From assembly GCA_964016885.1 (NCBI GenBank), contig OZ024741.1, forward strand, positions 39,370,001-39,434,000: a stretch of 64,000 bases of DNA, in the 5' to 3' direction. Source of the DNA: Eledone cirrhosa. Lineage: Eukaryota. The notes below the pieces were generated by a model that saw only the letters and a program-made list of their open reading frames with translations, was not told where the DNA came from and searched no databases. How positions within the stretch are numbered: position 1 is the stretch's first letter; each line of letters opens with the position of its first letter. A program made the position numbers and the translations under genes. Positions 2,556 to 56,111 of this stretch are shown here, piece by piece.

Positions 2556-3225
2556 TCACAATTTTTGTGGCGATGATAGTAGATGGTAATAGATGATAGT
2601 AGATGATAGTAGATGATAGTAGATATGTGCGTGACTGTATGATGGAGGATAGGGGTGTTGTGGTAGTGGCGATAGTGTTGTAATGGTGATATTTATTAGG
2701 GTGATGGTGATGGACGTGGGGTGATGGTGCTGGACGTGGGGTGATGGTGGTGGACGTAGTGGTGGAAGCTTTCTAATTTTAGTGGTGGTGGTGGTTATGT
2801 GGTCGTAGTAGCGATGTAGAAATGGTGGTGGTGGTGGTGGGGTATACATATATAAAAATAATAAAACTAATAAAACAAATGAAATAAATATTGTTGGTGA
2901 AAAGTATAAAAATCAATAACAGGAGACATAGGCAACACTCTATGTGTAGTTTGATCTGCTAAATCTAGCAACTAGATCAATACAACTAGTAGATTATATA
3001 TATATATATATATATATATATATATATATATATATATATATATATATATATATATATATATATATATATATATATATATTTATATATATATATATATAAT
3101 TAATTAAGGAGGTCTGGGAAGGAACCAGTTGGACCATAACGCACCAGAGTACTCAATACACACATATATATGTGTGTGTATGTATATATATGTGTACATA
3201 TGTGTGTATATATATATATCAGATA

Positions 3226-3412
3226 GGGTGTGGTATAAAACCAGGTAGACCATAACCCACCAGAGTACTCGATACTTGGGGTAGTAGAGTGGATAATATG
3301 AAAAGATTCAGGACCCCGACGGCTGAGCTCCGGCCTTTCGACAGCTAGATCTGAACTGAGTTTGGATCCAGCAATCGAAATGGCCGGAGCTCCGCCGTCG
3401 GAGTCCTGAATA
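3226..3412 (-). mobile_element. (TA)n-embedded fold-back element (family H): ~85-bp conserved tail plus inverted HHR 3' half
   Basis: Tail GGACCATAACGCACCARAGTACTCAATACTTAGGGTAGTAGAGTGG shared with 3905-4088, 31535-31692, 38460-38670, 41531-41670; hairpin GGACCCCGACGG...CCGTCGGAGTCC. Confidence 0.75.
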
Positions 3413-3904
3413 TTTTCATATTCTGTATATATATATAGCGTGAAACCTATATTGACATTTGTACTGCCTCTTCGCTTCCTCGATTTTTTGTTTTCTGTGT
3501 CAACTTTAATATATATATATATATATATATATATATATATATATATATATATATATATATATATATATATATATATCCAACACCACCATTCTACACCAAT
3601 ACATATTACTATCATTTGATAATGCATAAAAATGCTGAAACTGGTAATAGACAATTATTAGATATATAAATAAATAAATGCCATTGTTAATTAATAAATA
3701 AATCAACTAATACCTTAACACTTCACACAAAGTAAAATATTTCGTTTTAATCATTTTCTAACCCAGAAAATAGAGAGAAATAAATAAAAAAGGAAAAAAA
3801 AATATTTTTCTTCCTAATAATCGTATTTTTCTCGCTGTTTTCATATATATATATATATATATATATATATATATATATATATATATATATATATATATGA
3901 ACAA

Positions 3905-4088
3905 ATATTACCCCGACGGCAGAGCTCAAGCCGTTTCGACGGCCATTTATGTCCAGAAATAGCCGTCGAAACAGCTTGAACTCTGCCGTTGGGGTCATAC
4001 TTTTTCCTATTACCCACTCTACTACCCTAAGTATTGAGTTCCCTGGTGCGTTATGGTCCATTTGGTTCCTTACCACATCTCCTTCGTT
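3905..4088 (+). mobile_element. Family H fold-back element
   Basis: Same tail and hairpin in opposite orientation, bounded by (TA)n on both sides. Confidence 0.75.
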
Positions 4089-4703
4089 ATATATATATAT
4101 ATATATATATATATATATATATATATATATATACGTTATTCCGGGTTGAATCGGAGGTAACCACAGTAAGTAAGGTACTCAATACATAGCAGAGTATAAA
4201 AGTTTTATATATATATATATATATGCGCATGTTCACACATATACATACGCGTGTTTGTGTGCGTATTCGTGCATACAGGCCTGCAGACATGTGTATACAC
4301 GTTTACACACACACTTCCACCAACATCACACTTAACAACCACACACGCACACACGCATCGTAACATGCACTCCACCCACACACAACCACCAACTGCACGT
4401 CTCCACACTTCCCCATGACCACCACATCCACACACCGGACCACTCGCCACCCACTGTTCCTCTTCCTCCGCCTACTCATATTTAATTTTATAATTCCTTT
4501 CTAGTCTTATTTTTAAAAAAAATTATTTTTTAATTTTCTTATTTTCTTCGCGCTTTTCCTGTTTTTCCTGGTGAAGGGAAATTGTCTGATACGTTTCTTT
4601 AGAACTGCTGGACTGGCAACCTGACAGATACCTCAGGTACAGATGATGATTATCGCTAAATACTGATGTTGGTTAGATTATCAATATTAGTATTATTGGG
4701 GCA

Positions 4704-51446: not shown

Positions 51447-51550
51447 TACGGAACATTAACAAAGAGTAAATATAACACTGACATATATATAACACTTTAT
51501 ATATATATATATATATATATATATATATATATATATATATATATATATAT

Positions 51551-51800
51551 TTATTTATTAAAATAACAGATTAAAATTTAAGCAAAGAAGTATTGCTTCC
51601 GCCCTTAACGGGATCTTCTGAAAGGACTTCTGAAAGAAGATCCCGTTAAGGGTGAAAGCAGCGATTCTTTGCTTAAATTTTAATCATCTGTTATTTTAAT
51701 AAATATTTGCTCTACGGTTTTACATATTTTTATATATATATATTATCCTTATCTAACTCTCTTCACATTTTAGTCTTCACATTTATTATTATTACTTTAC
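51551..51800 (+). mobile_element. Fold-back repeat; uninverted relative at 53575-53730
   Basis: CCCTTAACGGGATCTTC vs GAAGATCCCGTTAAGGG; arms run out to (TA)n. Confidence 0.75.
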
Positions 51801-54800
51801 TATATATATATATATATATATATATATATATATATATATATATATATATATATATATATATTTATATATATATATATATATACACACACATACGGTGTAC
51901 TTCCATACACTTTCCATCTAATAAATTTCATCCATATAACACACTCTTTCCCAAACAGACACGAAGAAGGACTGAAGTCGAAAGCAAGCAGTTGCAAAGC
52001 AAACACGTTAATAATATAGATATGCCCTCACGGGGTCTAGTGGAGATGGTTGCTTCCTACAAGACCAGCTTGAAGGTGTGATTGAGGACTTTGCCTTGTC
52101 GACCCTCCCAGGAATAAGTAGGCAAAGAAGGAGAGGAAAAAATATGCGGTAGAACTAAGACACGCCCCCCCCGCCCCCGCACACACGCACACACATATAT
52201 ATATATATATATATACATATTTTTTAAATGGCTTCTACAGGACTAGAACTATATCATTCGGGAGAAATCATCATTAATATGGTTACCCCCGATTGACCCC
52301 GGGATAAACTTATATATATATATATGTGTGTGTGTGTGTGTGTGCGTGCGTTTCTGTTTCATTATTCTTAATATACTTCCATTCTGCCAGTCTCATTTCC
52401 TGAAAAATCTAGTCCCCTTTGTACTGTTTTAAACTTTTGAACTCCTTGCCAAATCAAACCCTAATTTTGTATCATTTAAGCAAATGTGAAATAGTACTCT
52501 ATCTTAATCTTTTAATCCATCTTCCTACCTCATCCTTCCTAACTTGAAGCACATCTGTGCCTTGGCCTTCCAAATTTGCAATTTAGAAAATTATGTATAT
52601 ATACGTATATACTGTGTATCTATATACCCAGATGTATATATATATATATATATATATATATATATATATATATATATATATATATATATATATATATATG
52701 TATATATATATATATATATATATATATATATATATGTATATATTTGTATATATTTATATATATATGTATATATATATATATATATATATATATATATATA
52801 TATGTATATATTTGTATATATTTATATATATATGTATATATATATATATATATATATATATATATATATATATATGTATATATTTGTATATATTTATATA
52901 TATATGTATATATATATATATATATATATATATATATATATATATATATATATGTATATATATATATATATATATGTATATATATATATATGTATATATA
53001 TATATATATATATATATATATATATATATATATGTGTGTGTGTGTGTGCGTGTGTGAGTGTGTATTTATATATATATATACATACACAGAACACACGCAC
53101 ATTTACATACATGATATAATGAAGGGTATGTGTATACAGGCACGCAGGGAAAGGGGGCGGGGAGATCGTATACTCGTTTTACTTGCATTTAAAATGTCTT
53201 CTTCTTCTTCTTCTTCTTCTTCTTCTTCTTCTTCTTCTTCTTCTTCTTCTTCTTCTTCTGTTCAAAAGTTCTTATGTTCAAAATGAATCATTTACTTGAT
53301 TTTTTCATTTTTTCTTCTCTTTACGTTGCCTCACCATTCATGTCTGTTTACTTGTCTTTCTCTTTCTCCACCCAATACTTTTTATTCCAATAACTAATTT
53401 TAGTTATTGTATTGCCCTAGCCGAAGAAATACTATGATGGCTAGTAGACCACTGAGGATGGATGGTCCTGGCTTCTATTTCTAATTCTTCATTTTATTAT
53501 ATATATGTCTTCCTTCGGTTGCAACGTTTTTTGAAATATTTACTTCTGCCTTCACAGATTGACTTTTTTAGTTTCAGAAGATCCCGTTAAGGGTAAAAGC
53601 AGCGATTTTTTGCTTAAACTTTAATCTGTTATTTTAATAAATATTTGCTCTACGGTTCTTATATATCTTATATATGTTCATCCTTATCGAGCCCTCTTTA
53701 GATTTTAGTCCTCAAATTCATTATTATTACTATATATATATATATATATATATATATATATATATATATATATATATATATATATATATATATATATATA
53801 TATATAATATATATATATATATATATATATATATATGTATATATATATATATATATATATATATATATATATATATATACATATATATATATATATATAT
53901 ATATATATATATATATATATATATATATATATATATATATATATATATATATATATATATATGTGTGTGTGTGTGTGTGTGTGTATGTGTGTGTGTATAT
54001 ATGTGTATATATATATGTATATATATATATATATACATACACTCATACACACACACACACACACACACACGTATATATATATATATATATATATATATAT
54101 ATATATATATATATATATATATATATATATATATACATACATGCATATATGCATATAAATACATACATTACATACATACAAACGTATAAGTATACCCTAT
54201 TTGTCTATGTATCTACTTATCATAGATAGATAGATAGATAGATAGATAGATAGATAGATAGATAGATAGATAGATAGATAGATAGATAGATAGATAGATA
54301 GATCAACAACAGTTGTGAGCATGAGGTATTCAAGTTGATTATGAAGCAAGAGACAAGAGCGGGATTAATAAGCTAATAAGCTAATTAGCAATTTTTACGC
54401 CTTGCAGTTTGCTTGTTTGGTTGGTTGCTTGTATCATTGGTTGTTTGTTGGTCGATTCACAGCATGTCTGCGCAGTAATGGTGAATTAATTTAGCCAGCT
54501 GACCACATTTTAATTCAATTATTTATCTGTCCATCTTGATGACAGTCAATTGATTTATCATTAGGTATCCTGCTTCTGATAACTCTTCCTTCTCACATTA
54601 TAAGATATACTACAGCTTTTGCTTCTGTTCTCCCATTTATATACTGACTTAATTTACAAATACCTGAAAACCTGAAACCACACAAACTTCTCTATTCTGC
54701 CACCTACCAATTAACACAAGATGCTCTCTCTCTCTCTATCTCTCTATCTCTCTCTGTCGCACACACACACTCAAAATATGTGTGTAAATATATATATATA

Positions 54801-56111
54801 TATATATATATATATATATATATATATATATATATATATATATATATATATATATATATACGTGTGTGTGTGCACATATATAAACATACATACGTACATA
54901 CACAAACACAGACACACACACATATATATATATATATATATATATATATATATATATATATATATATATATATATATATATATATATATATATATATATA
55001 TGTATGTAAAAATAGTTGAAGAAACTCAGTTCCTGATCCTTCTGTATTCCGGAGTGTAATAAAGAATGAATAATAACGGGTAGACATAAAAAGGTAATTT
55101 AATGTATGTATGTATGTATATATATATATATGTACATATATATATATATATATATATATATACATGTATATATATATATATATATATATGTATATATATA
55201 TATATATATATATATATATATATAGATATAGATATAGATAGATAGATAGATAGATAAATCTAACAAAATATACGGTAGTGTCCAATGTAATCCAAATATC
55301 ATGAAAAGAGAAGATGCATTCAAATATTTTCGATGAAAATCATAGGAAAACAGTCAAGATAAATAATTTATATATATATATGTGTATATATATATAATTT
55401 ATATATATATATATATATATTAGAAAGTGAGGTTTTTTTTACAAAATGAAAAATAACCGAGGTGTCCTACACGAGTGAAAGTATAAAGAAAAAAAGATGA
55501 AATCGAAAATGCACCTGGAGTCTTATTTAAAAAAATATATATATATTTATTTGGTTCCTTTACCGGTTTCGCAGTTCTTCTGTTTTTCAAAAGTAGAGTT
55601 GAGATGGAGGGTCTGTGGTTTTTCTCACATCTGAGATGTGAGAAAAACCACAGACCAAGTAAACCATAAACGCAAATAAAGAAAGATATCTATCTGACTA
55701 TCTATCCCTTTCTTCAATTCCTCAATTCCTATCTAATTCCTCACCCTTTCTAGCCACACACACACACACACACACACACACACACACACACACACACACA
55801 CACACACACACACACACACACACACACACACACACACACACACACACACACATATATATATATATATATACATACATACATATATACTGACATATATTTC
55901 AATACATGCCTACATTTTCTCGGTCTATGAACGAGCGCATGTCTTTCTAAATAGAATGTATCCATATTATCATATTATCTGAAAATGTTGGGCTGTGCTG
56001 CCATCAACGTGCATACATAAGCAGCACAGCTTCGTATATCTATGGAACCGTAAATCTCAGTGCACTCGTAGGGCCTCCATCATGATATACGGCATTTGGG
56101 GACCATATTAA

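What the first reader, a model, noticed from the sequence alone, without database searches (positions are those of the whole stretch)
3100..55660. Recurrent insertion signature: two 3' ends pointing outward into (TA)n
Unrelated families share one geometry: left arm on -, right arm on +, and arms running out to (TA)n or AT-rich flanks. In the short cases the inversion point lies in or near an HHR-like motif. Cases where polarity can be read: 7280-7548, 9786-10062, family H copies, 51551-51800, and the 33441-36290 array. Further fold-backs without readable polarity: 9357-9625, 10077-10278, 36602-37152, 41127-41386. Known: Penelope-like elements often carry inverted partial terminal repeats and HHRs. 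Inference: because (TA)n is self-complementary, both strands can prime, so twin priming at (TA)n may be the usual integration route for a whole guild of HHR RNAs in this genome.
Basis: partly seen in the sequence, partly recalled or inferred. Interest (0 to 1): 0.7.

Follow-up and report, generated by a model that had tools for sequence, protein, structure and literature searches.

The report
Back-to-back Penelope and retrozyme insertions
Several families of jumping repeats sit in TA microsatellites as two back-to-back arms, one ending at a short and the other at a long fixed end; the layout is known from Penelope-type retrotransposons, but its strictness in a ribozyme-bearing repeat suggests that both DNA strands are likely primed together on one RNA.

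Summary
At least nine repeat families in the window sit in (TA)n as head-to-head arms with 3' ends outward. Two are 3' ends of autonomous Penelope-like elements (PLEs); two are hammerhead retrozymes. For the 310-bp retrozyme (33441-36290), 93 of 100 genome copies picked by one end are inverted. In 115 of 115 resolved inversions one arm ends at site B and the other 26-35 nt further, at site A; never A/A or B/B. Arms share a haplotype in 59 of 62 loci (permutation mean 7), either arm may be longer, and inner junctions are uniform, not at the ribozyme. This fits concerted priming of both target strands at two fixed RNA start sites, and fits neither L1-style twin priming, fold-back copying nor MITEs. 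Head-to-head arms, a one-sided tail, (TA)n targets and two start sites are published PLE features. The strict pairing, the shared template and multimeric inverted retrozymes were not found in my searches. Inversion is the rule only for this family. 10077-10278 does not belong. RNA evidence and the retrozyme's helper are missing. The scan noted the same pattern before on other DNA.

The parts
33441..34634 (-). 310-bp retrozyme array (Fam1), left arm, 3.9 units; outer end at site B (monomer 130, counted from the predicted cut), inner end at monomer 177
34635..36290 (+). Fam1 right arm, 5.3 units; inner end monomer 60, outer end at site A (monomer 165, with 35-nt tail) running into (TA)n; blunt junction
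34849..34891 (+). Minimal type I hammerhead motif, one per unit (6-bp stem I, 5-bp stem II, palindromic short stem III); predicted cut after 34885
   Evidence: Rfam HH9 22 bits, E 0.0016, below gathering score 52
9360..9626 (.). Second retrozyme subfamily (Fam1b, about 320-nt unit, canonical type I HHR in longer copies): B arm 9360-9473 minus, A arm 9477-9626 plus; tail related to Fam1
9697..10062 (.). Family F2: A arm 9697-9968 minus (91-nt tail, HHR motif with core at 9885 on minus), B arm 9977-10062 plus
   Evidence: no Rfam hit
7197..7548 (.). Family F3: A arm about 7197-7451 minus (about 80-nt tail), B arm 7452-7548 plus; canonical type I HHR lies just upstream in longer copies, absent here
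3228..3422 (.). Family H copy (3' end of a Hydra-like PLE): A arm 3228-3357 minus, B arm 3365-3422 plus; extra tail piece 3106-3159
3899..4088 (.). Family H copy: B arm 3899-3948 minus, A arm 3951-4088 plus
31535..31692 (.). Family H copy: A arm 31535-31652 minus, B arm 31655-31692 plus
38460..38672 (.). Family H copy: A arm 38460-38600 minus, B arm 38616-38672 plus
41532..41673 (.). Family H copy with centre lost: tail 41532-41615 minus, B arm to 41673 plus
49106..49190 (.). Short family H fold-back, no tail on either arm (exception)
36602..37198 (.). Family F6 (3' end of a Neptune-like PLE with RT and GIY-YIG): B arm from 36602 minus, A arm 36917-37198 plus (about 48-nt tail); HHR-like motif at the junction
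41122..41455 (.). Family F7: B arm 41122-41246 minus, A arm 41257 to about 41455 plus (about 65-nt tail); polarity inferred from the tail only
51552..51795 (.). Family F4: B arm 51552-51623 minus, A arm 51635-51795 plus (89-nt tail); polarity inferred from the tail only; single-arm copy at 53506-53730
55420..55656 (.). Family F8: long arm with 66-nt tail 55420-55632, 22-nt second arm; short-end/long-end pairs in other copies; polarity inferred from the tail only

Best explanation
These are head-to-head insertions of Penelope-like-element 3' ends and of hammerhead retrozymes in (TA)n, with one arm ending at a short site B and the other at a long site A, likely made when a PLE reverse transcriptase-endonuclease cuts both target strands and primes both on one RNA. 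Steps: (1) inferred: the enzyme, probably a dimer, cuts both strands of a (TA)n tract; (2) shown by the ends: one cDNA starts at site B, which has a few bases of AT-alternating match to the target, the other at site A, 26-91 nt further 3' depending on family; (3) shown for Fam1: the two cDNAs run independently and stop anywhere; (4) supported: their inner ends are joined through 1-5 nt microhomology, bluntly, or with short inserts; (5) inferred: host repair fills the second strands. For Fam1 the template is likely a monomer circle read round many times, sometimes an uncut multimer. For family H most cDNAs stop at one fixed site 58 nt upstream of B, likely the RNA 5' end.
For: Fam1: 1024 exact A|(TA)n and 1296 exact B|(TA)n junctions genome-wide, reversed-pattern control 0. 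Of the first 100 A junctions on contig C1, 93 are inverted, 4 single-armed, 1 masked, 2 longer than the stretch fetched; 87 of 87 with the far end resolved end at B. With 17 identity-picked and 11 B-picked loci: 115 of 115 A/B. Same haplotype in both arms in 59 of 62 loci with arms of two units or more, permutation mean 7.0, maximum 17 in 10,000; 24 haplotypes, 16 seen once. Nine loci carry a substitution unique among 80 loci in every covering unit of both arms. L130 and L113 show the same minority variants at the same unit counted from the outer end in both arms. B arm longer in 28 of 69, inner ends uniform and independent (7 of 74 within 15 nt, 7.4 expected). Microhomology of 2 nt or more in 30 of 51 insert-free joints, 18% expected, p=5e-11. 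Other families: H 21 A/B of 21 inverted probe-picked and 28 A/B, 1 B/B, 4 unclear incidental; F2 26 A/B, 1 A/A, 1 B/B, 2 unclear; F4 12 A/B, 1 A/A, 4 unclear; F3 8 A/B, 2 B/B, 5 unclear; F6 6 A/B, 2 unclear. PLE ORFs lead into H and F6 ends. In vitro a PLE cuts and extends both strands from two start sites that bound the tail, and is predicted to be a dimer (PMC11167929).
Against: No RNA data: cleavage, circles and the H 5' end are untested. No autonomous partner found for Fam1. Two RNAs from one source locus would also give matching haplotypes. Three of 62 loci are discordant or mosaic (L104, L130, L139), and in-register mosaics fit a linear multimer better than a monomer circle. In vitro, no difference of start site between strands was seen and coupling was not tested. 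A/A and B/B exceptions occur in older families, and an alternative reference gave 1 B/B in F6. In H and F4 both arms mostly end at one point (19 of 21, 11 of 12 within 10 nt), which fold-back would also give. Target duplications and empty sites could not be read. Single-arm copies dominate several families, and 8 of 20 B ends without an exact A neighbour are single-armed.
Confidence: 0.7

Rival explanations
1. Same asymmetric complex, but each subunit copies its own RNA molecule, both from the one source locus active in that cell.
For: Explains A/B pairing and most haplotype matches; fits the discordant loci L104 and L139; minimal hammerheads work as dimers in amphibian retrozymes (PMC7229834).
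Against: Needs one dominant source per event although 24 haplotypes occur in 62 loci; in-register mosaics L130 and L113 need both RNAs primed in the same unit.
Confidence: 0.15
2. One cDNA is made, folds back, copies itself and joins the other flank at an AT-alternating patch (related to the self-priming proposed in PMC3846280).
For: Near-perfect palindromic joints in H and F4; would give identical haplotypes; site B has microhomology to (TA)n.
Against: In single-unit families the tail-less arm cannot reach further upstream than the tailed arm, yet it does in 4 of 28 incidental H pairs (read), 3 of 6 F6, 2 of 8 F3 and 20 of 26 F2 (F2 sample biased by the query). In Fam1 either arm is longer, inner ends are independent, and L130 shares its outer, not inner, units.
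Confidence: 0.08
3. L1-style twin priming: a second primer anneals further along a linear RNA and the first cDNA stops there (model recalled; paper not held).
For: Same outward geometry; microhomology at the B primer site and at the junction.
Against: A-arm inner ends are not enriched at the B site (14 of 74 against 9.8); arms overlap by up to kilobases; the second start is fixed, not opportunistic.
Confidence: 0.03
4. Arms are terminal inverted repeats of MITEs or other DNA transposons with TA targets.
For: Short fold-backs in TA; the H junction is nearly fixed.
Against: Unequal ends, junctions that differ copy by copy, 5' truncation, long copies running into RT/GIY-YIG ORFs; no transposase-like ORF seen in those copies.
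Confidence: 0.01
5. Arms were homogenised after insertion by gene conversion or unequal crossover, or the perfect palindromes are long-read assembly artefacts.
For: Inverted tandem repeats can convert; L094 and L294 show repeated minority variants; the window's junction was not bridged in three short-read assemblies (perhaps another individual).
Against: Within-locus variants are fixed (356) or single (95), rarely intermediate (12); 54 of 61 minority variants covered in register are unshared. Artefacts would not end at two different fixed sites with distinct flanks, nor appear in diverged families; short-read contigs show TA loose ends at monomer 139 and 170.
Confidence: 0.03

Closest known systems
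EN+ Penelope-like elements, inverted pLTR structure (PMC3846280, passages; PMC8557442, passages and section 11; PMC2377424, passages)
   Same: Head-to-head inverted 5'-truncated copy, tail on one end only, (TA)n targets (Hydra, Naiad), HHR in the pLTR; H and F6 are 3' ends of such elements.
   Different: Tails here are 26-91 nt (published 30-40); pairing is counted as a near-absolute rule; the published self-priming account does not fit Fam1.
PAc (Poseidon, Anolis) in vitro mechanism (PMC11167929; parts 1-2 of 4 read, whole main text before most Methods; supplements not seen)
   Same: Both strands cut and extended; two internal RT start sites bound the tail; AT-rich target; predicted dimer.
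   Different: No coupling of the two start sites to the two strands was reported; no multimeric retrozyme template; no inverted product analysed in the text read.
Animal non-LTR retrozymes (PMC7229834, passages; bioRxiv 10.64898/2026.07.22.740005, parts 1-3 of 5, supplements not seen)
   Same: About 310-320-nt non-coding tandem unit, type I HHR, low GC, proposed PLE helper and circular template.
   Different: Described as head-to-tail tandems; 'inverted' and 'orientation' occur 0 times in PMC7229834. Here most copies are two opposed multimeric arms with PLE ends. The preprint discusses local amplification by unequal crossover, which these arrays do not resemble.
L1 twin-priming inversions (Ostertag and Kazazian 2001; seen only as a reference entry, model recalled)
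   Same: Both target strands prime; inverted arm; microhomology junction.
   Different: Second start is fixed, arms overlap widely, first arm does not stop at the second primer, and inversion is the majority outcome for Fam1.

Membership tests
EN+ Penelope-like element (families H, F6) | ORF with RT and C-terminal GIY-YIG leading into the terminal repeat | tested here: met
   F6: 389-aa frame from YVDD to VVY..YIG (read by motif, no Pfam or PDB hit). H: broken frames with GIY-YIG, Pfam E 0.003, below cut-off; its RT core was not fetched.
EN+ Penelope-like element | Head-to-head inverted copy with a tail on one end | tested here: met
EN+ Penelope-like element | Target-site duplication | not testable with these tools
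   Flanks are (TA)n on both sides, median about 20 nt each; no empty paralogue found
Hydra clade (family H) | CxCX5C linker and C-terminal EN, (TA)n target | tested here: met
   CNCPDRSAC in L174 against section 11 of PMC8557442
Hydra clade (family H) | Canonical hammerhead in the pLTR | tested here: not met
   None on the sense strand of L178, L174, L172; H is called Hydra-like, not a member
Hydra or Neptune clade | Placement in RT phylogeny | not tested
   No reference PLE proteins at hand; F6 called Neptune-like from CX4CxxC linker and CCHH-type residues only
Animal non-LTR retrozyme (Fam1, Fam1b) | 170-400-nt non-coding tandem unit with type I HHR in each unit | tested here: met
   unit folds better than 100 of 100 shuffles, z=-4.6
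Animal non-LTR retrozyme | Self-cleavage and circular RNA in vivo | not testable with these tools
   No RNA holder listed
Animal non-LTR retrozyme | Mobilised by a PLE sharing its 3' end | tested here: inconclusive
   PLE-type ends shown; no ORF contiguous with the Fam1 tail in 40 loci picked by the tail motif or in earlier loci
L1-type twin priming | Inner end of the first arm abuts the start of the inverted arm | tested here: not met
   14 of 74 against 9.8 expected; definition recalled
MITE / TIR DNA transposon | Equal terminal inverted repeats and fixed structure across copies | tested here: not met

The most novel reading that the evidence does not exclude
One 310-nt circular retrozyme RNA is copied at once by the two halves of a PLE dimer, each primed by one target strand at its own start site and each rolling round the same circle, so every insertion is a double rolling-circle product of up to about 15 kb; the PLE 'tail' and 'inverted pLTR' are then two faces of one obligatory two-start, two-strand reaction.
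Probability: 0.35. Interest if true: 0.75.

Novelty: new variant of a known kind. Interest (0 to 1): 0.52.

Why it matters
How PLEs make their inverted, tailed insertions is named as an open task in PMC8557442. A young family with over a thousand copies gives a quantitative footprint: one arm per start site, a shared template, independent arm lengths, microhomology joining. That turns the open question into a simple bench test with the existing in vitro system, argues against the published self-priming account for this family, and gives genomic support for multi-round copying of animal retrozymes. The parts are all known, so this refines a mechanism and is not a new class.

Tried and rejected
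Whole-window Rfam scan: the 150 rows shown were microsatellite-driven noise, no ribozyme among them. Junction-at-hammerhead: rejected for Fam1 and F6; F3 gives 9 of 25 arms ending at -5..+25 of the predicted cut, no higher than 14 of 39 in the next 31 nt, and 0 of 16 just upstream; the Fam1b and F2 runs were spoiled by cross-hits and subfamily divergence. Cap-derived G at the fixed H end: not enriched (7 G of 38); a sharp end for F4 did not hold in incidental copies. Known ribozyme at the H stop: none. Empty-site paralogues: none, only other family members nested in the same TA tracts. Helper for Fam1: not found. Expression: no RNA holder listed. One raw-read run had 0 reads laid, no test; two other runs held one low-depth 340-nt contig each, not interpreted. 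Window junction not bridged in X1-X3, inconclusive. The script called no inversion in F7 though several are visible by eye; F4 was mis-referenced and redone. Some of the 23 junction 'inserts' are alignment stops at variants. Literature searches found no report of inverted retrozyme arrays or of strict A/B pairing; subscription papers and all supplements were not seen.
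Full report
Setting. The window is G000:C2:39370001-39434000 in a 3.0-Gb animal genome, rich in TA microsatellites; the repeat content looks cephalopod-like (recalled, not tested).

The large array. 33441-36290 is a 310-bp unit with a minimal type I hammerhead in every copy (Rfam HH9 22 bits, below the gathering score). 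Taking the predicted cut as position 0, the left arm is minus and ends outward at 130 (site B); the right arm is plus and ends at 165 (site A). Of 21 loci picked by identity, window included, 17 are inverted minus/plus, 4 single-armed, none plus/minus. The genome holds 1024 exact A|(TA)n and 1296 exact B|(TA)n junctions. I fetched the 100 listed A junctions, a sample blind to the other end: 93 inverted, 4 single-armed, 1 masked, 2 too long; 87 of 87 resolved far ends are B. Among the listed ends on the first 210 Mb of C1, 56 minus/plus neighbours are A-B, none A/A, and the one apparent B/B is two insertions. Of 20 B ends fetched from about 44 without an exact A neighbour, 11 pair with A variants (166-172), 1 is unresolved and 8 are single-armed. 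Total: 115 of 115 resolved inversions are A/B (97, 18).

Inner junction. In the 74 inversions of the first 80 A-picked loci, inner ends are uniform (21 of 148 in the hammerhead zone, 20.5 expected), independent between arms (7 of 74 within 15 nt, 7.4 expected) and not tied to site B (14 of 74, 9.8 expected). The B arm is longer in 28 of 69; arm lengths correlate weakly (rho 0.33, p=0.005). Microhomology of 2 nt or more occurs in 30 of 51 insert-free joints against 18% expected; 23 joints have inserts, some of them alignment stops.

Template. In 59 of 62 loci with both arms two units or longer the arms share a haplotype (permutation mean 7.0, maximum 17); 24 haplotypes, 16 seen once. Variants within a locus are fixed (356) or single (95), rarely intermediate (12). 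Nine loci carry a substitution unique among 80 loci in all covering units of both arms. Across 714 unit junctions no sporadic indel sits at the cut site. This fits a monomer-length template read repeatedly. Against a pure circle: L130 and L113 have mosaics in register from the outer end in both arms, which fits one linear multimer; L104 and L139 are discordant. Two RNAs from one source cannot be excluded.

Other families. H copies continue into broken frames with a GIY-YIG and a CxCX5C linker, Hydra-like by PMC8557442 section 11, but no hammerhead was found. The 36602 family continues into a 389-aa RT plus GIY-YIG frame, Neptune-like by motif (no Pfam or PDB hit). 9357-9625 is a second retrozyme subfamily with a canonical hammerhead and a related tail. 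F2 and F3 carry hammerhead motifs; F4, F7 and F8 are oriented by tail only. Tails are 48-91 nt. Probe-picked tallies: H 21 A/B and 9 single of 30; F2 26 A/B, 1 A/A, 1 B/B, 2 unclear of 30 (query selects inversions); F4 12 A/B, 1 A/A, 4 unclear, 13 single of 30; F3 8 A/B, 2 B/B, 5 unclear, 15 single of 30; F6 6 A/B, 2 unclear, 17 single of 25; F7 none called in 18 classified of 25; no tail-to-tail joint. Incidental copies: H 33 inverted (28 A/B, 1 B/B, 4 unclear) and 41 single; F4 7 and 41; F2 2 and 51. Inversion is thus the rule for Fam1 only. H arms mostly stop at one site 58 nt upstream of B, without a cap-G signal. 10077-10278 is single-copy and built differently.

Mechanism. Shown: geometry, two fixed ends one per arm, shared haplotype, independent truncation, microhomology joints. 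Inferred: a PLE enzyme cutting both strands and priming both at once on one RNA. PMC11167929 reports both-strand cutting and extension, two start sites that bound the tail, and a predicted dimer, but no coupling. Fold-back copying (related to PMC3846280) fails for Fam1 and for some H, F6, F3 and F2 copies but stays possible for most H and F4 copies. L1-style twin priming (recalled; not held) fails the abutting test. MITEs fail on unequal ends, variable junctions and PLE ORFs. Conversion and assembly artefact are unlikely; one search is inconclusive.

Known and new. Head-to-head arms, one-sided tail and (TA)n targets are published; retrozymes as PLE passengers are proposed. Inverted multimeric retrozymes, strict A/B pairing and matching arms were not found in nine searches; supplements and subscription papers were not seen, and the supplements of PMC11167929 and PMC8557442 may bear on the pairing claim. 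Earlier notes of this scan report the same pattern on other DNA; I read them after and they did not change my reading.

Gaps. No RNA run, no helper for Fam1, no empty site, no phylogeny.

Verdict. Real feature; new variant of a known kind; interest 0.52; best mechanism 0.7; double rolling-circle reading 0.35, interest 0.75 if true.

Noticed in passing
window 16093-29991: Three tandem, same-strand copies (77-86% alike) of an L1/Tx1-like LINE; the middle one has a 625-aa first frame and an unbroken 1166-aa endonuclease-RT frame. Clustering suggests a targeted or self-targeting insertion.
   Followed up: partly
family H, e.g. window 38600 and L161-L190: Most H arms stop at one site (AGTCC, preceded by TTT in long copies) about 58 nt upstream of site B; 62 of 107 incidental arm ends fall in that 10-nt bin. 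It resembles an initiator motif (recalled); Penelope has an internal promoter with Inr. Cause unknown.
   Followed up: partly
G000:C1:97461503-97476482 (L117, L294): A and B ends 15 kb apart on opposite strands: probably one Fam1 insertion of about 48 units; middle not fetched.
   Followed up: no
L094: Two minority variants recur with a 7-unit period in one arm: a 7-mer template or a later duplication.
   Followed up: no
L081, L089, L114, L123, L141: A one-base insertion two bases after the predicted cut site is fixed across units of five loci.
   Followed up: no
window 10077-10278: Single-copy fold-back with about 60-nt arms around a central TA/TG microsatellite; different from the pattern.
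   Followed up: partly
window 4137-4200, 38700-38770, 52220-52310: Pieces of a further TA-inserted family whose longer copies carry a hammerhead motif like that of Fam1 and share part of the H tail.
   Followed up: no
window 4594-6121: Near-perfect 702-bp tandem duplication (98%, about 2.2 units), no hammerhead called by the descriptor.
   Followed up: no
L123, L152, L049, L112: Family members nest in the TA tracts at each other's ends, building tail-to-tail clusters separated by (TA)n.
   Followed up: partly
runs X4-X20: More than half of the Fam1 unit's sampled words occur in runs labelled as 17 other organisms; two laid runs hold one low-depth contig each. Carry-over or relatives; not resolved.
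   Followed up: partly
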